Shown here: positions 1 through 5,561 of the stretch, piece by piece
Position numbering within the stretch: position 1 is the first letter of the stretch
Layout of the letters: the number at the start of each line of letters is the position of its first letter
IMG/VR virus record: IMGVR_UViG_2541047728_000018
Length of the DNA: 11,200 bases
Source: a virus
Taxonomy: Duplodnaviria > Heunggongvirae > Uroviricota > Caudoviricetes
Strand: one strand, 5' to 3'
Made by a program: the position numbers and the translations under genes
The notes under the pieces: generated by a model
What the model was told of the DNA's origin: nothing
Databases searched by the model: none
The model's input: the letters and a program-made list of their open reading frames with translations, nothing else

Positions 1-1242
1 ATGGCGAGAAAAACACACCCATTAACCACAGTGCAGATCAAAGCAGCCAGACCAGCGCAAAAGGAGTACACCCTGCAGGACGGCGGAGGGCTTTTTCTCC
101 TGGTCAAACCGTCTGGATCAAAACTCTGGAGATTTTCCTACTACCGACCATCGGACAAAAAAAGAATATTGCTGAGTTTTGGATCGCTTGAAGATGTTTC
201 CCTGGCTGATGCCAGAAAACGCCGTAGCGAGTACAGGACGTTAATCAGTGCCGGAACTGACCCGCAGGACCACGAGAGGCAAAAAAGAGAGACAGAGGCC
301 CGAAGACAAGGGAACACGTTCGAAAATGTGGCGGCGGCATGGTACCAGGTGAAAATCAGCCAGAATCTGGCCCCCAACACGATTAAAGACATCTGGCGTT
401 CGCTGGATAAATATGTATTCCCGTTCATCGGCAACACGCCAATAGATACCCTCACCGCCCGAAGGTTCGTTGAAGTGCTTACCCCCATCAAGGAGCGCGG
501 CAACCTGGAAACACTCAAGCGGGTTTTACAGCGCGTTAATGAGGTAATGGATTACGCCGCCAACAGTGGGCTGATTGATGCCAATCCGGCTATGAATGTG
601 CGTAAGGCGTTTCCCTCACCTGTAAAAAAACATATGCCAACAATCCGCCCCGAACAGCTGCCGGAGCTTATGCAGGCTTTATCAGTATCGGCAACAGAAC
701 GGCAGACCAGATTACTGATTGAATGGCAGTTACTGACCGTAACCCGTCCCGCCGAAGCGTCATCAACGCGGTGGGATGAAATCAACCTGGACGCGAAGCA
801 ATGGACGATACCTGCCGGACGCATGAAGATGCGCAGGGATCACGTTATCCCGCTTTCCGGTCAGGCTATGGCGGTGCTGGAGGCCATGAAACCAATCAGC
901 CACCACCGCAATTACGTTTTCCCAAGTCTGAAAGACCCACAGCAGCCGATGAACAGCCAGACAGCTAACGCAGCATTGCGGCGTATGGGATTCGCTGGCG
1001 TGCTGGTGTCTCATGGATTACGCGCCATATTCAGCACAGCAGCGAACGAGGAAGGATTCGAGCCGGACGTAATAGAGGCGGCACTTGCCCACGTCGACAC
1101 CAACGAAGTTAGACGGGCATACAACCGGAGCAACTACATAGAAAAACGCATCGTGCTGATGCGCTGGTGGGGCGAATTTGTCGAGGCTGCGGCGACGGGC
1201 GTAACCCTCGCCAGTGGTAAAAGGGGTATCCGAGCCGTGTAG
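1..1242 (+). CDS. int: Tyrosine-type site-specific integrase, P4-like family
   Basis: 413-aa ORF. N-terminal arm-binding-type motif (GGGLFLLVKPSGSKLWRFSYY) typical of P4-family integrases; C-terminal catalytic signature VTRPAEA (Arg), HGLRAIFST (H-x-x-R) and RRAYNRSNY (Tyr). Sits at the element boundary, as expected for an island integrase. Confidence 0.9.
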   Translation: MARKTHPLTTVQIKAARPAQKEYTLQDGGGLFLLVKPSGSKLWRFSYYRPSDKKRILLSFGSLEDVSLADARKRRSEYRTLISAGTDPQDHERQKRETEARRQGNTFENVAAAWYQVKISQNLAPNTIKDIWRSLDKYVFPFIGNTPIDTLTARRFVEVLTPIKERGNLETLKRVLQRVNEVMDYAANSGLIDANPAMNVRKAFPSPVKKHMPTIRPEQLPELMQALSVSATERQTRLLIEWQLLTVTRPAEASSTRWDEINLDAKQWTIPAGRMKMRRDHVIPLSGQAMAVLEAMKPISHHRNYVFPSLKDPQQPMNSQTANAALRRMGFAGVLVSHGLRAIFSTAANEEGFEPDVIEAALAHVDTNEVRRAYNRSNYIEKRIVLMRWWGEFVEAAATGVTLASGKRGIRAV

Positions 1243-1319
1243 CTGTACAGAAAACCAGTAAAAACTACGAAAACCATGTAAAACCGTCGTATAATTGCAT
1301 CAAATTTAACGACAAGGCC

Positions 1320-1571
1320 GTGAAACATGAAACCGTTAAGATGCAAAAAAATATCAGATGCAATTGCGACGGGCTGCAACTGGCCCTGATGGTTCAGCAT
1401 GAATTTTGGTCAACCTACGATCCGGAGGACAGGACGACGGCCCCATCAAAAAAACAGGTAGTAGATTTTCTGGTATCCCGTGGCGCTTCCAGAAATCTGG
1501 CGGTAAGTATTGATAAGGTCGTACGTCCGGCATCTATGAAGATCGGAGGCAGGCCCAAAAAATGGCGGTAA
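1320..1571 (+). CDS. Small hypothetical protein (83 aa), possibly a truncated AlpA/excisionase-like HTH
   Basis: ORF with GTG (1320) or ATG (1341) start, preceded by a perfect TATAAT at 1290-1295 and followed by a strong intrinsic terminator. The C-terminal motif VRPASMKIGGRPKKW resembles the P-x-P-x-K-(L/I)-G-x-R-x-x-x-W wing motif of AlpA/Xis-type proteins. Confidence 0.4.
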   Translation: MKHETVKMQKNIRCNCDGLQLALMVQHEFWSTYDPEDRTTAPSKKQVVDFLVSRGASRNLAVSIDKVVRPASMKIGGRPKKWR

Positions 1572-1581
1572 CAATCCTGGA

Positions 1582-1606
1582 AGCGGCAGAAATGCCGCTT
1601 TTTTTA
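1582..1606 (+). terminator. Rho-independent terminator
   Basis: Stem AGCGGCA / TGCCGCT with GAAA loop, followed by a run of 7 T, immediately after the stop codon at 1569-1571. Confidence 0.7.
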
Positions 1607-1632
1607 TAATTCCATTTCAAATCATCAATATA

Positions 1633-1718
1633 AAAAACGGTGTATACCGTTTAAAAACGGTGGGAACTGTTTTTACCCATATCCGATGATTTACCGTATT
1701 TGTCACCGGAATACACCG
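1633..1718 (+). promoter_or_regulatory. Cluster of dyad symmetries and direct repeats upstream of alpA (candidate operator region)
   Basis: AAAAACGGTG repeated at 1633-1642 and 1653-1662; palindrome ACCGTTT-AA-AAACGGT at 1646-1661; CACCGG-AATA-CACCGG at 1703-1718. Confidence 0.3.
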
Positions 1719-1738
1719 GATTCACAAGGTAAATCACG

Positions 1739-1945
1739 ATGGAAGCAATCAGAAAAATTATCTTTCGCCAGGAAGTAAAAAAAATTATCCACATCAAGGC
1801 AGACAGCACGCTGCAAAGCATGATCAACGCCGGAGAATTTCCGCAGGGTTTTCGCGTTGGTTTACGCCGTCGCGGATGGTATGAGGATGATGTGTTGGCC
1901 TGGCAGAAAGAACGCGAACAGGAAGCACGCGGAACGGCTGCTTAA
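1739..1945 (+). CDS. alpA: AlpA-family phage transcriptional regulator / excisionase-like HTH protein
   Basis: 68-aa ORF; ...LQSMINAGEFPQGFRVGLRRRGWYEDDVLAWQKER matches the AlpA family pattern (helix, then F-P-x-x-x-x-x-G-x-R-x-x-x-W, then acidic tail). Its position after int is typical of P4-like and PICI-like islands. Confidence 0.8.
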   Translation: MEAIRKIIFRQEVKKIIHIKADSTLQSMINAGEFPQGFRVGLRRRGWYEDDVLAWQKEREQEARGTAA

Positions 1946-2327
1946 CGGGTATCACAGATATGACAAACACGAAAAAAGCGGCCCCGATATGGAGCCGCCT
2001 TTCTGAACAATTAACCCGCTGCGCCTTATGTGTATGTGATCCCAAACATAAGCACGGGGATGATAGCCGCTATCAGGCTGGTGGGCAATGCAATCAGTCT
2101 GGTTCAGTGCGTTGCCATAACTGCGAAGTTCTCTCCTTTGATGAGTATTCTTTAAGGTACTTCTCAAGGGCAAAAGAACACGGCGCGAATCGTTCTGATT
2201 CATGCTCTTTCTTTCTGCGTCGTCTTTTTCGTGCAGGTGATGTTTTTTCGGTTGATTCTTCGTTGGTCATTGTGTGCGCCTGTAAAGCAATGCGCCGTAG
2301 TACCTCACACCACGGCGCTGATAGTTT

Positions 2328-2507
2328 TTATCCTTTGGGTTCTATGCCGCGTTGCTGTAATTCTTTGCGGATTATTCGCTTTATCCAGGCAGCAAGAGAA
2401 TCATCGCCGTCCTGTTGTTGTGCCTTTTCCATCTTTTCCCGTAAGTCAGGATCTAAACGGAACTGGAACGGAGGATTACCACGCCTTTCGTTTTTGTGTG
2501 TTGACAC
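2328..2507 (-). CDS. Ribbon-helix-helix (Arc/CopG-like) DNA-binding protein, 59 aa, GTG start
   Basis: Not in the supplied ORF track (59 aa). Minus-strand translation: VSTHKNERRGNPPFQFRLDPDLREKMEKAQQQDGDDSLAAWIKRIIRKELQQRGIEPKG. Beta strand with alternating hydrophobics (FQFRL), helix A, G/D turn and helix B fit the RHH pattern. Strong SD GAGGTG (complement of 2516-2521) 8 nt upstream of the GTG. Confidence 0.45.
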   Translation of the reverse strand: MSTHKNERRGNPPFQFRLDPDLREKMEKAQQQDGDDSLAAWIKRIIRKELQQRGIEPKG

Positions 2508-2528
2508 GTTAATTACACCTCATGTAAT
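2501..2528 (+). promoter_or_regulatory. Candidate rightward sigma70 promoter
   Basis: Consensus -35 TTGACA at 2501-2506; -10-like TGTAAT at 2523-2528 with 16-bp spacer. The palindromic operator lies just downstream. Confidence 0.3.
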
Positions 2529-2536
2529 GTATTTAT

Positions 2537-2557
2537 GTGTAATGACACATTACACAC
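2537..2557. promoter_or_regulatory. Perfect 21-bp palindrome TGTGTAATG-ACA-CATTACACA (candidate operator)
   Basis: Perfect 9-bp arms with 3-bp spacer, in the divergent interval between the minus-strand RHH gene and the rightward small-ORF/primase operon. Confidence 0.45.
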
Positions 2558-2562
2558 AATCA

Positions 2563-2607
2563 ACACAAAAAGCAAAGCCCCGCACTGTAGGAGCAGTAAC
2601 GGGGCTT
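2563..2607 (-). terminator. GC-rich hairpin; terminator-like on the minus strand, or a 5' UTR stem-loop of the rightward transcript
   Basis: Stem AAGCCCCG(c)ACTG ... CAGT(aa)CGGGGCTT (2575-2607). On the minus strand it is followed by TGCTTTTTGTG; on the plus strand there is no T tract. Confidence 0.35.
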
Positions 2608-2636
2608 CTAACCAACAACGTAAACTAGGAGCCGTT

Positions 2637-2834
2637 ATGGTTGCCGTAAATCATATACCACACCTTGTACACACACAAACGGCCTTTGTGTGGCGTTTTC
2701 TGGCACTGAGTGCCGGAGAATCTCAAATCATCCACGTAACCGCCTGGACGGAACGCGAAGCGCGTAGCCGTTGCCCGTCCGGTTGTGTTGCTGTATTTGC
2801 TGCCCGTATTCGCCAGGGGTCACATCATGCGTAA
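2637..2834 (+). CDS. Small protein (65 aa) with FVWRF...TEREAR...ARIRQG-SHA domain; possibly Icd-like (tentative)
   Basis: ATG at 2637 with AGGAG SD 5 nt upstream. The C-terminus is paralogous to the C-terminus of the next ORF. Family assignment is from memory of typical P4-like island annotations, not verified. Confidence 0.5.
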   Translation: MVAVNHIPHLVHTQTAFVWRFLALSAGESQIIHVTAWTEREARSRCPSGCVAVFAARIRQGSHHA

Positions 2835-3291
2835 AAACCGCTTGCAAAAAATTATCACGGGGCTGTATGCTTCCCCCGTCGCCCACATGGCGACCGGGTT
2901 TAGCAGCCTGAATACATCTGGCGGACAGCCGCCCACATCCGATAAGCGGTTTTTTTGTGTCCGTAAACCTACCCATACCCGCATTATGGCGGGGCGTAAC
3001 GGGGGAGCCTTTGTGCTCGCTGGTTTCCAGATGACCAGTCTGCTAACCCTGTTACGTCTCGCCACCATGTTTAGCAGCGTAGTAGCGAGACTCCTTAAAA
3101 TTCATCTGGGAGCCTTTCACATGGCTGTATTCGCACGCCCTTATTTTGTCTGGCGCTTTATGCAGTGCCTGACAGACAGTATTGCAATATTCACCGTTAC
3201 CGCTGCCACTGAGCGCGAAGCACGTGCACAGCTGCCGCACGCACATCTTATTTTTGTCGCCCGTATTCGCCAGGGGGGGAGTCATGCATAA
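2827..3291 (+). CDS. Protein (154 aa) whose C-terminal ~56 aa are paralogous to the preceding small ORF; alternative internal start at 3121
   Basis: Start overlaps the upstream stop in ATGCGTAA (2827-2834). C-terminus FVWRFMQCLTDSIAIFTVTAATEREARAQLPHAHLIFVARIRQGGSHA. ATG at 3121 has a GGGAG SD and would give a 56-aa paralog instead. Confidence 0.35.
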   Translation: MRKNRLQKIITGLYASPVAHMATGFSSLNTSGGQPPTSDKRFFCVRKPTHTRIMAGRNGGAFVLAGFQMTSLLTLLRLATMFSSVVARLLKIHLGAFHMAVFARPYFVWRFMQCLTDSIAIFTVTAATEREARAQLPHAHLIFVARIRQGGSHA

Positions 3292-3511
3292 AATACCCTT
3301 TGATGTTCTTGTTCATTCTGAAAACGCATTAATCCGCGCAAAGGAAATGGACGCATTACTACTTAAGTTAATTGATGTGCCGGAAAGTGGCGATGAATCT
3401 GATTCAATGATGTTTTCTGCCGTGCGTACGCTATTAACGCCTGTTATTAATGAATTAAATACAGTGATGGCAATTCACGAGAATAATAAAGCGCAGCACA
3501 CCGGAGAATAA
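3284..3511 (+). CDS. Hypothetical protein (75 aa)
   Basis: ATG 3284 overlaps the upstream stop in ATGCATAA (same coupling geometry as at 2827); SD GGGGGAG upstream. Acidic, helical-looking sequence. Confidence 0.5.
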   Translation: MHKIPFDVLVHSENALIRAKEMDALLLKLIDVPESGDESDSMMFSAVRTLLTPVINELNTVMAIHENNKAQHTGE

Positions 3512-3516
3512 AAAAC

Positions 3517-3816
3517 ATGAAAAATAAAAATTCTGGCGTTACTGCCAGCGGCCCCGCTCGTCCTGAATTTATGAACGGCGATATTTACCGCGATAAATAT
3601 GGCGGCATGGTAACGATTAAAGGCGTGGCAGAACGGCGCATCACCTACCGTCGTGAAGGCTACGAATATGATTGCGTGATGCCTGTTTATCAGTTTGATC
3701 GTGATTTTTCTCTGGTGCAGGCAGCGCCCCGTAGTGTGCCCACCAGCAGGGAGAAAGCACGCGCCAATATTCAGGAAATAAAAAAGATGCTTAACGTATT
3801 CAGGGGTAAAAAATGA
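3517..3816 (+). CDS. Hypothetical protein (99 aa), translationally coupled to the primase
   Basis: SD GGAGAA upstream; its stop overlaps the primase start in ATGA (3813-3816). Confidence 0.55.
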   Translation: MKNKNSGVTASGPARPEFMNGDIYRDKYGGMVTIKGVAERRITYRREGYEYDCVMPVYQFDRDFSLVQAAPRSVPTSREKARANIQEIKKMLNVFRGKK

Positions 3817-5561
3817 AACTGGCACCGAACGTAAAAAAACAGCCACGCGGAATAAAACACAAAGACACAGAGGTAATTATTTTCGCGGGTAGTGATGCCT
3901 GGTCGCACGCGAAACAATGGCAGGAGCAGGATGGCCCCGCATCCGGCGATAATGTGCCGCCTGTGTGGCTTGGGCCAAATCAGCTTGCCGAACTTGATGC
4001 ACTGAAAATTGTTCCGGATGGAAAAAAACGCGTAAGGCTGTACCAGGCCGGAGAACTGGATTTGGTGGAGACCAAAAAGATTGGTCAGAAGCTGGCGGCG
4101 GCAGATATTCAGGACGCAAATTTTTACCCCGAAGGAATGCACGTCCAGAAGTGTGAAAACTGGCGGCGCTATCTGAATGCTGAGCGTGAAAATATTGCCG
4201 CAGGGCTTACCATGCCGGAGCAGAAAAATACGCAACTGGCACAAATGGCAGACAGTGAGCGCGCGCAGCTGCTTGCCGAGCGCTTTGATGGCGTTTGTGT
4301 GCATCCTGAAAGTGAAATCGTTCACGTATGGCGCGGCGGGGTATGGTGTCCGGTCAGCACAATGGAGCTGAGCCGCGAAATGGTGGCGATCTATTCAGAG
4401 CACAGGGCCACTTTCAGCAAGCGCGTAATCAATAACGCCGTGGAAGCGTTAAAAGTTATTGCCGAACCAATGGGCGAGCCGTCCGGCTATTTGCTGCCGT
4501 TCGCCAATGGTGCGCTTGACCTGAAAACGGGGGAATTTTCCCCGCACACGCCGGAGAACTGGATCACCACGCACAACGGCATTGAGTACACGCCACCAGC
4601 ACCCGGGGAGAACATCCGCGATAACGCGCCAAACTTTCATAAATGGCTTGAGCACGCAGCCGGAAAAGACCCGAGCAAGATGATGCGTATATGTGCCGCG
4701 CTGTACATGATTATGGCGAACCGGTACGACTGGCAGATGTTTATTGAGGCCACCGGAGACGGCGGGAGCGGTAAAAGTACATTCACACACATAGCCAGCC
4801 TTCTGGCAGGGAAACAGAACACGGTAAGCGCTGAAATGACATCGCTTGATGATGCTGGTGGACGTGCGCAGGTTGTCGGGAGTCGTCTTATCGTCCTGGC
4901 TGACCAGCCGAAATATACAGGCGAAGGAACGGGCATCAAGAAAATCACAGGCGGCGACCCCGTGGAAGTTAACCCGAAATATGAAAAGCGTTTCACGGCG
5001 GTAATCAGGGCGGTGGTGCTGGCGACCAACAACAACCCGATGATATTCACCGAACGGGCCGGAGGTGTGGCACGTCGTCGCGTGATTTTCCGTTTCGACA
5101 ATATCGTCAGTGAGGCCGAAAAAGACAGGGAGCTACCGGAAAAGATCGCGGCTGAAATCCCTGTCATTATCCGCCGATTGCTGGCGAACTTTACCGACCC
5201 TGAGAAGGCACGGGCTTTACTACTGGAACAGCGTGACGGTGATGAAGCTCTGGCAATAAAGCAACAGACGGATCCGGTTATTGAGTTTTGCCAGTTCCTG
5301 AATTTTCTGGAGGAAGCACGCGGCCTGATGATGGGCGGCGGTGGCGATTCAGTGAAGTACACGACCAGAAACAGCCTTTACCGCGTCTATCTGGCGTTTA
5401 TGGCGTACGCAGGCAGGAGCAAACCGCTAAACGTAAATGACTTTGGCAAGGCTATGAAGCCAGCCGCGAAAGTTTACGGACATGAATATATTACGCGGAA
5501 AGTTAAGGGAGTAACGCAGACTAACGCAATAACAACAGACGAGTGCGACGCGTTTTTATAA
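3813..5561 (+). CDS. Phage/plasmid primase-helicase, P4 alpha-like (D5_N / primase C-terminal type)
   Basis: 582-aa ORF with Walker A motif GDGGSGKST; overall layout of P4-family primase/helicase C-terminal region; placed between alpA and an iteron origin as in P4-like and PICI replicons. Confidence 0.85.
   Translation: MKLAPNVKKQPRGIKHKDTEVIIFAGSDAWSHAKQWQEQDGPASGDNVPPVWLGPNQLAELDALKIVPDGKKRVRLYQAGELDLVETKKIGQKLAAADIQDANFYPEGMHVQKCENWRRYLNAERENIAAGLTMPEQKNTQLAQMADSERAQLLAERFDGVCVHPESEIVHVWRGGVWCPVSTMELSREMVAIYSEHRATFSKRVINNAVEALKVIAEPMGEPSGYLLPFANGALDLKTGEFSPHTPENWITTHNGIEYTPPAPGENIRDNAPNFHKWLEHAAGKDPSKMMRICAALYMIMANRYDWQMFIEATGDGGSGKSTFTHIASLLAGKQNTVSAEMTSLDDAGGRAQVVGSRLIVLADQPKYTGEGTGIKKITGGDPVEVNPKYEKRFTAVIRAVVLATNNNPMIFTERAGGVARRRVIFRFDNIVSEAEKDRELPEKIAAEIPVIIRRLLANFTDPEKARALLLEQRDGDEALAIKQQTDPVIEFCQFLNFLEEARGLMMGGGGDSVKYTTRNSLYRVYLAFMAYAGRSKPLNVNDFGKAMKPAAKVYGHEYITRKVKGVTQTNAITTDECDAFL

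What the first reader, a model, noticed from the sequence alone, without database searches (positions are those of the whole stretch)
1290..1606. Self-contained small gene cassette between int and alpA
It has a perfect -10 hexamer, an 83-aa ORF and a strong terminator, making it an isolated transcription unit. The C-terminus carries a partial AlpA/Xis wing motif but lacks the usual tail, so it could be a truncated excisionase-like or directionality factor, or an accessory gene.
Basis: partly seen in the sequence, partly recalled or inferred. Interest (0 to 1): 0.35.

Follow-up and report, generated by a model that had tools for sequence, protein, structure and literature searches.

The report
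Unannotated small gene upstream of alpA
The cassette is a real, selected 76-residue gene in an E. coli phage satellite, and it is the stripped-down form of an unannotated protein domain that sits just upstream of the satellite master switch alpA in many Proteobacteria, though its function is still only inferred.

Summary
TATAAT lies at 1290-1295, the ORF ends at 1571, and a strong intrinsic terminator lies at 1579-1606. All three are conserved in diverged E. coli islands at tRNA-Pro. The ORF is under purifying selection. Its likely start is ATG 1341 (76 aa), not GTG 1320 (83 aa).

The proposed AlpA/Xis relationship fails every test run: Pfam, PHROGs, profile-profile comparison and predicted fold.

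The protein is instead a stand-alone copy of an unannotated C-terminal domain of about 65 aa, made of three helices and a basic tail. In the E. coli protein the tail is AT-hook-like (GGRPKKWR). The domain was found in 452 representative clusters, normally at the end of proteins of about 190-370 aa. In 56 of 62 loci with enough flank, an AlpA-like gene follows within 250 nt. A P4-type integrase often lies directly upstream.

So this is a core part of the int-X-alpA switch, not cargo. It occupies the same slot as PICMI iolg, which is essential for excision, but is not homologous to the three IOLG proteins tested. The terminator probably shields alpA from constitutive upstream transcription.

The mechanism, either a DNA-bound cofactor or a regulator of alpA and excision, is inferred and not shown.

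The parts
1..1242 (+). P4-type tyrosine integrase (int), the upstream neighbour
   Evidence: Pfam Arm-DNA-bind_3, Phage_int_M and Phage_integrase match at E 5e-23 to 6e-29. PGAP annotates an integrase next to tRNA-Pro and yejM.
1249..1289 (+). Four A-tract repeats phased at about 10 bp (GAAAACCAGT / AAAAACTACG / AAAACCATGT / AAAACCGTCG), running into the -10 and filling the -35 and spacer region
   Evidence: Seen. The block is 76-91% identical across islands whose coding core is only 67-69% identical. No such cluster was found in the attL or right-end regions.
1290..1295 (+). Conserved -10 hexamer TATAAT of the cassette promoter (no recognisable -35)
1341..1571 (+). Gene X: 76 aa plus stop. 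It is a stand-alone copy of an unannotated C-terminal domain, with predicted helices at residues 11-23, 37-46 and 51-61 and the basic tail PASMKIGGRPKKWR.
   Evidence: Purifying selection. Conserved ATG start. PGAP CDS WP_001171357.1. AlphaFold2 pLDDT 77-78. 452 representative homologues at E <= 1e-3. Tail charge +5.
1579..1606 (+). Intrinsic terminator: GGAAGCGGCA-GAAA-TGCCGCTT followed by T7
   Evidence: -15 kcal/mol, z -4.4. The structure is kept with a different stem sequence in the other clade. Present in 36 of 37 distinct IMG/VR versions.
1633..1675 (+). Second conserved palindrome or hairpin plus T5 (AAAAACGGTG twice, with inverted copies). It could be a tandem terminator or attenuator, or an operator, upstream of alpA.
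   Evidence: In the L004 clade the hairpin reaches -23.9 kcal/mol. Sequence conservation is shown.
1704..1720 (+). Two CACCGGA repeats 10 bp apart, just upstream of the alpA ribosome-binding site
   Evidence: The same heptamer occurs four times in the attL arm of the identical island L001. These are candidate AlpA (directionality factor) sites. This is an inference.
1739..1945 (+). alpA-like gene (68 aa), the downstream neighbour and the master activator in Gram-negative PICIs
   Evidence: Matches phrog_66 and phrog_2790, 'excisionase and transcriptional regulator' (E 5.5e-7 and 3e-6). The Pfam Phage_AlpA match is weak. PGAP names it a helix-turn-helix or AlpA family regulator. The role is taken from PMC6092414.

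Best explanation
**Shown**
- The cassette encodes a real 76-aa protein, called X here.
- X is the minimal, N-terminally truncated form of an unannotated protein family. The family's conserved C-terminal domain has three helices and a short basic tail that ends the protein.
- That family is a core component of the int-X-alpA module of P4-integrase/AlpA/primase islands and satellites in Proteobacteria.

**Inferred**
- In the integrated E. coli island, X is made at a low constitutive level. Transcription would come from its own -35-less promoter with a perfect -10, and possibly from int read-through.
- The strong terminator at 1579-1606, backed by a second hairpin at 1633-1675, stops this transcription from running into alpA. 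alpA expression triggers induction, so this would prevent spurious induction.
- X acts as a small adaptor at the int/alpA control region. Its AT-hook-like tail (GGRPKKWR) would contact the A-tract repeats that bracket its gene. Its neutral helical core would contact a conserved partner such as Int, AlpA or itself.
- In this way X would set the threshold for alpA expression and/or assist excision, as the non-homologous iolg gene does in the same slot of PICMI satellites.
For: - **Real gene.** Codon-position bias is 20/11/44. L005 versus L007 shows 8 synonymous and 0 non-synonymous changes. dN is 0.20 with dS saturated. The ORF is intact in 36 of 37 distinct IMG/VR versions.
- **Frequency.** The region is present in 374 of 5426 complete E. 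coli genomes. All eight islands examined sit at tRNA-Pro next to yejM.
- **Family.** 452 representative clusters match at E <= 1e-3. In every non-repeat hit examined the domain is at or within a few residues of the C-terminus.
- **Synteny.** 56 of 62 loci with at least 500 nt of downstream flank carry an AlpA-like ORF on the same strand, with a median gap of 146 nt. A P4-type integrase was found upstream in 14 of 25 loci with enough flank, on the same strand in 13 of these. The int-X gap is sometimes only -3 to +9 nt. The same order holds in L009-L013 and in 10 of 10 further viral contigs.
- **Regulatory DNA.** The non-coding flanks are more conserved than the coding core: 76-91% and 74-76% against 67-69%. 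The terminator structure is kept through sequence change.
- **Site assignment.** The attL and right-end regions carry other repeats: CACCGGA, shared with the alpA leader, and TAGTTATACG, present at both ends. The A-tract cluster appears only around X.
- **Charge.** The basic charge sits in the tail (+5), while the core is neutral. Enterobacterial relatives have a GRP core flanked by K/R, for example KKRGRPLKS.
- **Literature.** iolg lies between int and alpA and is essential for PICMI115 excision. There, int and iolg are proposed to be constitutive and alpA phage-induced (PMC10803314). alpA is the phage-induced master activator in E. coli PICIs, and no repressor is known (PMC6092414).
Against: - There is no experimental datum for X.
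- There is no significant structural match: best Foldseek E is 2.4 against PDB and 0.8 against BFVD. There is no PDB sequence match either. DNA binding is therefore inferred only from the tail and the A-tracts.
- The helical core is neutral to acidic, with a family median charge of -2.2. This is atypical for a DNA-reading helix-turn-helix.
- The window tail is GGRP, not the canonical RGRP of an AT-hook.
- A-tract motif enrichment is modest by shuffling. AAAACC gives 18 matches against 9.9 expected, and AAAACSGT gives 4 against 1.2. The repeats could bind AlpA or a host factor, or could simply bend the DNA.
- The three PICMI IOLG proteins tested share no detectable similarity with X, so the excision role rests on position alone.
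- Terminator-like structures follow X in only 5 of 50 non-E. coli loci, so the insulation design is specific to this clade.
- The E. coli protein lacks the N-terminal domain that long forms carry, so its activity may differ from theirs.
Confidence: 0.4

Rival explanations
1. X is mainly a transcriptional regulator, the missing repressor or threshold-setter of the Gram-negative PICI switch. It would bind the repeats at its own promoter and at the alpA control region, and would be overcome when the helper phage induces alpA.
For: - X occupies the slot next to int where stl lies in Gram-positive PICIs (my own knowledge of SaPI maps; Fig. 1 legend of PMC6092414).
- It has a constitutive-looking promoter.
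- Conserved repeats lie on both sides of the gene and not at att.
- In most non-E. coli loci, direct repeats (GTTNYCCGCGCCCA, twice, about 54 bp apart) lie between X and alpA.
- No repressor is known for these islands, and the phage inducer of alpA is unknown (PMC6092414).
Against: - The helical core is not basic.
- No fold match to any helix-turn-helix regulator was found.
- The repeats could be AlpA autoregulatory sites, since AlpA activates its own promoter (PMC6092414).
- A separate Arc-like / YlcI-YnfO small gene on the opposite strand at 2328-2507 is an equally good repressor candidate.
Confidence: 0.25
2. X is a protein-protein cofactor of the integrase, working like IOLG. It would be needed to assemble the excisive complex with Int and AlpA, and would have no regulatory role of its own.
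For: - Long forms often abut or overlap int, with gaps of -3 to +9 nt, which suggests co-production with Int.
- PICMI iolg, in the same slot, is essential for excision (PMC10803314).
- The conserved neutral core fits a partner-binding module, while the N-terminal domains vary.
Against: - There is no homology to the three IOLG proteins tested.
- In the window, X is 98 nt from int and has its own promoter.
- In EcCICFT073, over-expressed AlpA alone triggered excision (PMC6092414). Whether that island carries X was not checked.
Confidence: 0.2
3. The cassette is chiefly a cis-acting device. A promoter followed by one or two terminators upstream of alpA would be read through only when an antiterminator is present, either AlpA itself, as in Pseudomonas aeruginosa, or a helper-phage factor. 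The ORF would be secondary.
For: - P. aeruginosa AlpA is an antiterminator. [quoted passage not shown]
- Here the conserved repeats fill the -35 and spacer region of a promoter with a perfect -10. Two terminator-like hairpins then precede alpA.
- AlpA boosts its own expression in E. coli PICIs (PMC6092414).
Against: - The ORF is under strong purifying selection and belongs to a large protein family, so the protein itself matters.
- Terminators after X are rare outside E. coli, 5 of 50 loci.
- The P. aeruginosa AlpA site motif GGGACG-N5-GGTA is absent.
- Antitermination by an E. coli PICI AlpA has not been reported in the papers read.
Confidence: 0.1
4. X is a degenerate AlpA/Xis-type winged-helix excisionase that has lost its C-terminal helix, or an unrelated moron or cargo gene.
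For: - The tail K-I-G-G-R-P-K-K-W-R superficially resembles the 'G-x-R-x-x-x-W' wing of AlpA proteins.
- The promoter-ORF-terminator layout is typical of a moron.
Against: - No HMM, profile or fold support for AlpA/Xis was found.
- PADLOC gave no hit.
- tblastn found no hit among 50,697 phage records, and only one, doubtful, hit among plasmids.
- Deep, conserved linkage to alpA is the opposite of a cargo-like distribution.
Confidence: 0.05

Closest known systems
IOLG/ICG genes of PICMI satellites (Vibrionaceae; PMC10803314)
   Same: Both are genes of unknown function lying between a P4-type int and alpA, on the same strand. In long-form relatives of X the gene often overlaps or abuts int. PICMI iolg is proposed to be constitutively expressed with int, and it is required for excision.
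   Different: The three PICMI IOLG proteins fetched (L158, L161, L162) show no similarity to X. The window gene is 98 nt from int and has its own -10 and terminator. The other 10 of the 13 IOLG/ICG families could not be checked.
AlpA / Vis / Xis-type winged-helix regulators and excisionases (Pfam PF05930, PF12728)
   Same: Both are small proteins in the int-proximal control region of an integrative element, with a basic G-R-containing segment near the C-terminus.
   Different: X has no HMM or profile similarity to them and its predicted fold has no beta wing. The true AlpA homologue is the next gene, at 1739-1945.
AT-hook DNA-binding motif (GRP core flanked by K/R, as in HMGA proteins and Myxococcus CarD; my own knowledge)
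   Same: The tail GGRPKKWR, and KKRGRPLKS or KGRPRK in relatives, has the GRP core flanked by basic residues. A-tract DNA lies on both sides of the gene.
   Different: The window has GGRP rather than RGRP. The large 'WPWG...TGPRK' branch of the family lacks the GRP core. Binding has not been tested.
Stl master repressors of Gram-positive PICIs/SaPIs
   Same: Both lie next to int, ahead of the island's activation genes, and look constitutively expressed.
   Different: There is no sequence or size similarity. stl is transcribed divergently from the genes it controls, whereas X is co-directional with alpA. Repressor activity of X is purely hypothetical.

Membership tests
AlpA / excisionase winged-helix family (PF05930 Phage_AlpA, PF12728 HTH_17) | Significant match to the family HMMs | tested here: not met
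   Pfam gave no AlpA or HTH_17 hit for X at E <= 1. None of 43 diverse family members matched at E <= 10. PHROGs gave no family for X, while the neighbouring alpA hits excisionase PHROGs.
AlpA / excisionase winged-helix family (PF05930 Phage_AlpA, PF12728 HTH_17) | Profile-profile similarity to bona fide AlpA proteins | tested here: not met
   hhalign of the X-domain profile (43 sequences) against 7 syntenic AlpA proteins gave probability 0.4% and E 0.14 over 10 columns.
AlpA / excisionase winged-helix family (PF05930 Phage_AlpA, PF12728 HTH_17) | Winged-helix fold (helix-turn-helix, beta-hairpin wing, C-terminal helix) | tested here: not met
   Two AlphaFold2 models (pLDDT 78 and 77) show three helices and a disordered tail with no beta hairpin. 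No Xis, TorI or MerR-like structure appears among the Foldseek matches. Model confidence is only moderate.
PICMI IOLG/ICG (int-alpA intervening gene) | Located between int and alpA on the same strand | tested here: met
   In the window: int 1-1242, X 1341-1571, alpA 1739-1945. The same order holds in relatives.
PICMI IOLG/ICG (int-alpA intervening gene) | Overlaps int (ATGA) or is contiguous with it | tested here: not met
   The window has a 98-nt gap containing a promoter. Some long-form relatives do overlap or abut int, with gaps of -3, 3, 6 and 9 nt.
PICMI IOLG/ICG (int-alpA intervening gene) | Sequence homology to a described IOLG | tested here: not met
   hmmsearch with the X profile against IOLG proteins from three PICMI loci (L158, L161, L162) gave no hit at E <= 10. 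Only 3 of the 13 IOLG/ICG families were sampled.
PICMI IOLG/ICG (int-alpA intervening gene) | Required for excision | not testable with these tools
   This needs a deletion mutant and an excision assay.
Unnamed 'X' C-terminal domain family (defined here) | A domain of about 65 aa (FWSTYDP-D--TAP ... L-R-P/A ... G-x-R) at the extreme C-terminus, ending in a basic tail | tested here: met
   The window protein seeds the family profile, so its match to that profile is by construction. Independent evidence: 452 representative clusters match at E <= 1e-3, and in every non-repeat hit examined the domain lies at or within a few residues of the C-terminus. W23, D27, T33, P35, L44, A54 and R62 are invariant or nearly so.
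Unnamed 'X' C-terminal domain family (defined here) | Gene lies immediately upstream of an AlpA-like gene | tested here: met
   True in 56 of 62 metagenomic loci, in 10 of 10 viral-contig loci and in the window (167-nt gap).
Moron / cargo transcription unit | Own promoter and terminator | tested here: inconclusive
   The perfect -10 is conserved and the terminator is confirmed, but there is no -35 and no transcript data.
Moron / cargo transcription unit | Sporadic, exchangeable presence unrelated to the element's core modules | tested here: not met
   Linkage to alpA and int is conserved across Proteobacteria. The int-X-alpA block is shared at 100% identity by islands with different replication modules.
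AT-hook motif | GRP core flanked by basic residues (canonical R-G-R-P) | tested here: inconclusive
   The window tail is K-I-G-G-R-P-K-K-W-R: the GRP core and basic flank are present but the first R is replaced by G. Canonical RGRP occurs in the Pectobacterium relative (KKRGRPLKS). The core is absent from the TGPRK branch.

The most novel reading that the evidence does not exclude
X, and the domain family it represents, is the missing control element of Gram-negative PICI-type satellites. It would be a constitutively made factor docked at the repeats around the alpA control region, holding alpA off or setting its threshold. It would also be the point at which the still unidentified helper-phage signal acts, making it the functional counterpart of Stl in Gram-positive PICIs.
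Probability: 0.12. Interest if true: 0.8.

Novelty: new variant of a known kind. Interest (0 to 1): 0.5.

Why it matters
- **An open question in the field.** In Gram-negative phage satellites (PICIs, cf-PICIs and P4-like primase islands), alpA is the master switch. How it is kept silent, and how helper phages turn it on, is not known (PMC6092414, PMC10803314).
- **What this adds.** The slot just upstream of alpA is widely occupied by one unannotated, strongly conserved protein domain. In E. coli cf-PICI-type islands that domain has been pared down to a 76-aa protein with its own promoter and an insulating terminator.
- **Why it is useful.** This gives a concrete, small and genetically tractable candidate for a third component of the int/alpA switch. 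It also defines a new domain family that could be added to Pfam-type libraries and to satellite-detection models.
- **If X has no phenotype.** The finding would reduce to a conserved hypothetical gene.

Tried and rejected
- **Family libraries.** Pfam, NCBIfam, PHROGs and PADLOC gave nothing meaningful for X or for up to 85 long-form relatives.
- **Structure searches.** Foldseek of two AlphaFold2 models against PDB and BFVD found no match below E 0.8. A PDB sequence-profile search gave only chance hits.
- **Spurious hits.** The top hit of the exhaustive search (P0012) and several other multi-stretch hits were set aside as repeat-driven. P0012 was checked and is an ankyrin-repeat protein.
- **Other collections.** tblastn found no match in the phage collection. 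In plasmids it found one doubtful hit, in a 1.4-Mb E. coli record. Rfam found no RNA family in 1150-1800.
- **Failed or thin scans.** The search for related loci with the broad alignment A2 failed for lack of a conserved stretch. The genome-contig scan returned only two loci.
- **IOLG homology.** I recovered three PICMI loci through the PICMI115 AlpA sequence taken from the paper's supplement. Their IOLG proteins do not match the X profile.
- **Longer N-terminus.** An extension overlapping int is ruled out: the X frame has a stop at about 1218-1220 and no start codon before 1320.
- **5' inverted repeat.** The repeat 1293-1301 / 1357-1365 was dismissed as a leader structure because it is not conserved outside the closest clade.
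- **Not attempted.** A test of whether the intergenic repeats co-vary with X or with AlpA, because shared ancestry would confound the result.

Full report
**Context.** The window is the left part of an E. coli phage satellite of the PICI / capsid-forming PICI kind.
- It carries a P4-type integrase (1-1242), the small ORF, an alpA-like gene (1739-1945), a D5-type primase (3813-5561), an SSB, a major capsid protein and a head decoration protein.
- A segment spanning the int 3' end to the alpA 5' end (window 1200-1760) is 100% identical in E. coli LH50-c. There the island sits at tRNA-Pro between yejM and yejO. PGAP calls the small ORF a 76-aa hypothetical protein.
- The region occurs in 374 of 5426 complete E. 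coli genomes.
- Many IMG/VR contigs begin at the same int start codon.

- TATAAT lies at 1290-1295.
- The ORF 1320-1571 exists.
- A 10-bp GC-rich hairpin followed by T7 lies at 1579-1606, at -15 kcal/mol with z = -4.4.
- I aligned the int-alpA intergenic region of eight islands that are only about 68% identical in the ORF.
  - The -10 is exact in seven and TATAGT in the eighth.
  - The terminator has a different stem sequence in the second clade but the same hairpin-plus-T7 design, at -14 kcal/mol.
  - The ORF core shows a clear coding signature. Variable columns by codon position are 20/11/44. L005 versus L007 shows 8 synonymous and 0 non-synonymous differences. dN is 0.20 with saturated synonymous sites between clades.
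- Among 37 distinct IMG/VR versions, 36 keep the ORF, the -10 and the terminator. One is truncated.
  - There is no usable -35, and the consensus scan did not call a promoter.
  - The start conserved in four clades, and used by PGAP, is ATG 1341 (76 aa). The first 10-20 residues and the start codon vary between clades. The X frame cannot extend into int.

**What the protein is not.**
- Pfam gives no Phage_AlpA or HTH_17 match for X, nor for any of 43 diverse relatives at E <= 10.
- PHROGs finds nothing for X, while it assigns the neighbouring gene to excisionase/regulator families.
- hhalign of the family profile against seven syntenic AlpA proteins gives 0.4% probability.
- Two AlphaFold2 models (pLDDT 78 and 77) show three helices, at residues 11-23, 37-46 and 51-61, and a flexible tail with no beta wing.
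- NCBIfam, PADLOC, a PDB sequence profile, Foldseek against PDB and BFVD, and Rfam also give nothing significant.

**What the protein is.**
- An exhaustive HMMER search with the E. coli alignment found 452 representative clusters at E <= 1e-3. Repeat-driven multi-stretch hits were set aside, including the top hit, an ankyrin-repeat protein.
- In the remaining listed hits the match lies at or within a few residues of the C-terminus. The proteins are mostly 190-280 aa, with some up to about 370-410 aa. Their N-terminal parts vary.
- The domain reads roughly x-FWSTYDP-D--TAP-(K/N)--V--(W/F)L---G-S---A--(I/M)---(I/L)-R-(P/A)-----G-x-R-K. W23, D27, T33, P35, L44, A54 and R62 are invariant or nearly so.
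- Neither the domain nor the long proteins match any Pfam, NCBIfam or PHROG family. Every named member seen is a 'hypothetical protein'.
- The closest long forms come from Pectobacterium, Edwardsiella and Providencia, and from viral contigs that begin at int just as the window does.
- The E. coli protein is therefore a stand-alone copy of the C-terminal domain. The variable, short N-terminus and the differing start codons fit a truncation.

**Genomic context of the family.** The linkage is the strongest result.
- Among 62 loci with at least 500 nt downstream, 56 have an AlpA-like ORF on the same strand. The median gap is 146 nt and the range is -40 to 249 nt. The window's gap is 167 nt.
- A P4-type integrase was found upstream in 14 of 25 loci with enough flank, on the same strand in 13 of these. 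It sometimes overlaps or abuts X, with gaps of -3, 3, 6 and 9 nt.
- The same int - X - alpA - primase/replicase order is seen in two gammaproteobacterial MAGs, a Burkholderiaceae genome, several metagenomic contigs and 10 of 10 further viral contigs.
- No tblastn match was found among 50,697 phage records. Only one doubtful match was found among plasmids.
- This is a core component of the int/alpA module, not cargo.

**Relation to published work.**
- In PICMI satellites of Vibrionaceae, a gene of unknown function between int and alpA (iolg, which overlaps int by ATGA) is required for excision. The authors propose that int and iolg are constitutive, that alpA is phage-induced, and that the three proteins form the excision complex. 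They note 13 unrelated IOLG/ICG families (PMC10803314).
- I recovered three PICMI loci through the PICMI115 AlpA sequence. Their IOLG proteins do not match the X profile. X is a positional analogue of IOLG, not a demonstrated homologue.
- For E. coli PICIs, AlpA is the activator that the helper phage switches on. It boosts its own promoter. No repressor is known, and the inducer is unidentified (PMC6092414; also PMC11773190).

**Regulatory DNA around the gene.**
- The non-coding flanks are more conserved than the ORF core: 76-91% upstream and 74-76% downstream, against 67-69%.
- Upstream, four A-tract repeats phased at about 10 bp (1249-1289) run into the -10.
- Downstream of the terminator lies a second palindrome or hairpin with a T5 run (1633-1675). 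It contains AAAAACGGTG twice plus inverted copies, and reaches -23.9 kcal/mol in the other clade.
- Two CACCGGA repeats follow at 1704-1720.
- In the identical island L001, CACCGGA also occurs four times in attL. A different repeat, TAGTTATACG, occurs in attL and near the right end.
- By analogy with other integrases, these two are candidate AlpA (directionality factor) sites and Int arm sites respectively. This is an inference. It leaves the A-tract repeats, found only around X, unassigned.
- Their enrichment by shuffling is modest. Conservation is the better argument for function.
- In most non-E. coli loci the X-alpA spacer carries a direct repeat, GTTNYCCGCGCCCA twice about 54 bp apart. 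The first copy overlaps the X stop codon. Terminator-like structures occur in only 5 of 50, so the terminator is a feature of the E. coli clade.

**Mechanism.** This part is inferred.
- The positive charge of X is concentrated in the tail: PASMKIGGRPKKWR carries +5, while the core is about 0. Across the family the core is slightly acidic, with a median of -2.2.
- In Enterobacterales the tail contains a GRP core flanked by K/R (KKRGRPLKS, KGRPRK, GGRPKKW). This is AT-hook-like and a natural fit for A-tract DNA.
- My preferred reading is as follows.
  - X is made constitutively.
  - Its transcript, and any int read-through, is stopped by the terminator or terminators so that alpA stays silent.
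  - X acts as a small adaptor at the int/alpA control region, with its tail on DNA and its core on a conserved partner.
  - It thereby influences alpA expression and/or excision.
- I cannot separate a regulator role from an excision-cofactor role with the tools at hand. Known small proteins in this niche, such as P4 Vis, P2 Cox and 186 Apl, do both (my own knowledge).
- A cis-only antitermination device modelled on P. aeruginosa AlpA (PMC7969949) is possible for the promoter and terminator. It does not explain the selection on the protein.

**Verdict.**
- The AlpA/Xis interpretation is not supported. 'Truncated' and 'possibly involved in excision' remain reasonable.
- The gene is a new, minimal variant of an unannotated but widespread family that occupies the known int-alpA slot.
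- Interest is moderate (0.5). The finding is well supported as a conserved module component and is directly testable. It bears on an open question about how satellites are induced. Its function remains unproven.

Noticed in passing
window 1633-1675: A second conserved palindrome or hairpin followed by T5 lies between the cassette terminator and alpA. It contains AAAAACGGTG twice, 20 bp apart, plus inverted copies. In the L004-type clade the arms pair almost perfectly (-23.9 kcal/mol). It could be a tandem terminator or attenuator in an alpA leader, or a symmetric operator.
   Followed up: partly
window 1704-1710 and 1714-1720; L001 12591-12691: The heptamer CACCGGA occurs twice, 10 bp apart, just upstream of the alpA ribosome-binding site. 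It occurs four times in the attL arm next to tRNA-Pro. These are candidate binding sites for AlpA acting both as directionality factor and as autoregulator.
   Followed up: partly
L001 12717-12768 and 23724-23745: The 10-mer TAGTTATACG occurs four times (two direct, two inverted) just upstream of int. It occurs once exactly, followed by a one-mismatch copy (TGGTTATACG), near the right end of the island. These are candidate integrase arm-type sites. No exact att core repeat of 10 nt or more was found with the tRNA 3' end.
   Followed up: partly
window 1605-1610: A second perfect TATAAT overlaps the end of the terminator T-run, and TATAATTCCAT repeats TATAATTGCAT of 1290-1300. It is present only in the window's clade: L002 has TATAAA, and it is absent in the L004 clade. 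It might be a clade-specific alpA promoter placed upstream of the second hairpin.
   Followed up: no
window 2328-2507 (minus strand): A 59-aa ORF matches the PHROG 'Arc-like repressor' family (phrog_228, E 2e-6). PGAP annotates YlcI/YnfO family proteins at a similar position in related islands. A minus-strand terminator-like site (2318-2292) follows it. It is another candidate for an island repressor, divergent from the replication genes.
   Followed up: no
L001 14926-18457 versus window 1960-5561: L001 matches the window's first 200 bases and is 100% identical over window 1200-1760. It carries a different replication module, with an Icd-like protein and a RepA-family helicase in place of the window's D5-type primase. 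The window's last 200 bases are not found in L001. The int-X-alpA block is therefore exchanged as a unit between islands.
   Followed up: partly
L012, L013, L016, L020, L023, L029, L037 and others (X-alpA spacers): In most non-E. coli loci the spacer between X and alpA carries a direct repeat, GTT-N-Y-CCGCGCCCA, twice and about 54 bp apart. The first copy overlaps the X stop codon (TAGTT...). A CCGC...GCG-CTATT element follows near alpA. This is a conserved, unassigned regulatory architecture.
   Followed up: partly
P0049 (90 aa); P0030, P0182, L151: Some E. coli-type sequences carry decayed versions. One is a deletion that fuses the first 42 residues of X to the C-terminal part of AlpA. It is deposited under the nematode Cooperia oncophora, which probably reflects contamination. 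Others are frameshifted or truncated copies of X.
   Followed up: no
P0012, P0038, P0048, P0089, P0102, P0106, P0136: The X profile gives high-scoring multi-stretch hits to long repeat proteins. P0012, the only one checked, is an ankyrin-repeat protein. The segment L-V-S-R-G-A-S-x-N-L-A resembles the ankyrin repeat consensus. This is a trap for automated annotation of the family.
   Followed up: yes
L009 5540-6222; P0078, P0055, P0036 N-termini: Several long-form proteins begin with a segment that looks like a MerR/excisionase-type helix-turn-helix, for example 'EKEWLTLEEIAQRWGCSVEDLWHYAETGRLRLSV'. No Pfam model detects it. If real, long forms would combine a DNA-binding N-domain with the conserved C-domain. 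The E. coli protein would be the C-domain alone.
   Followed up: no
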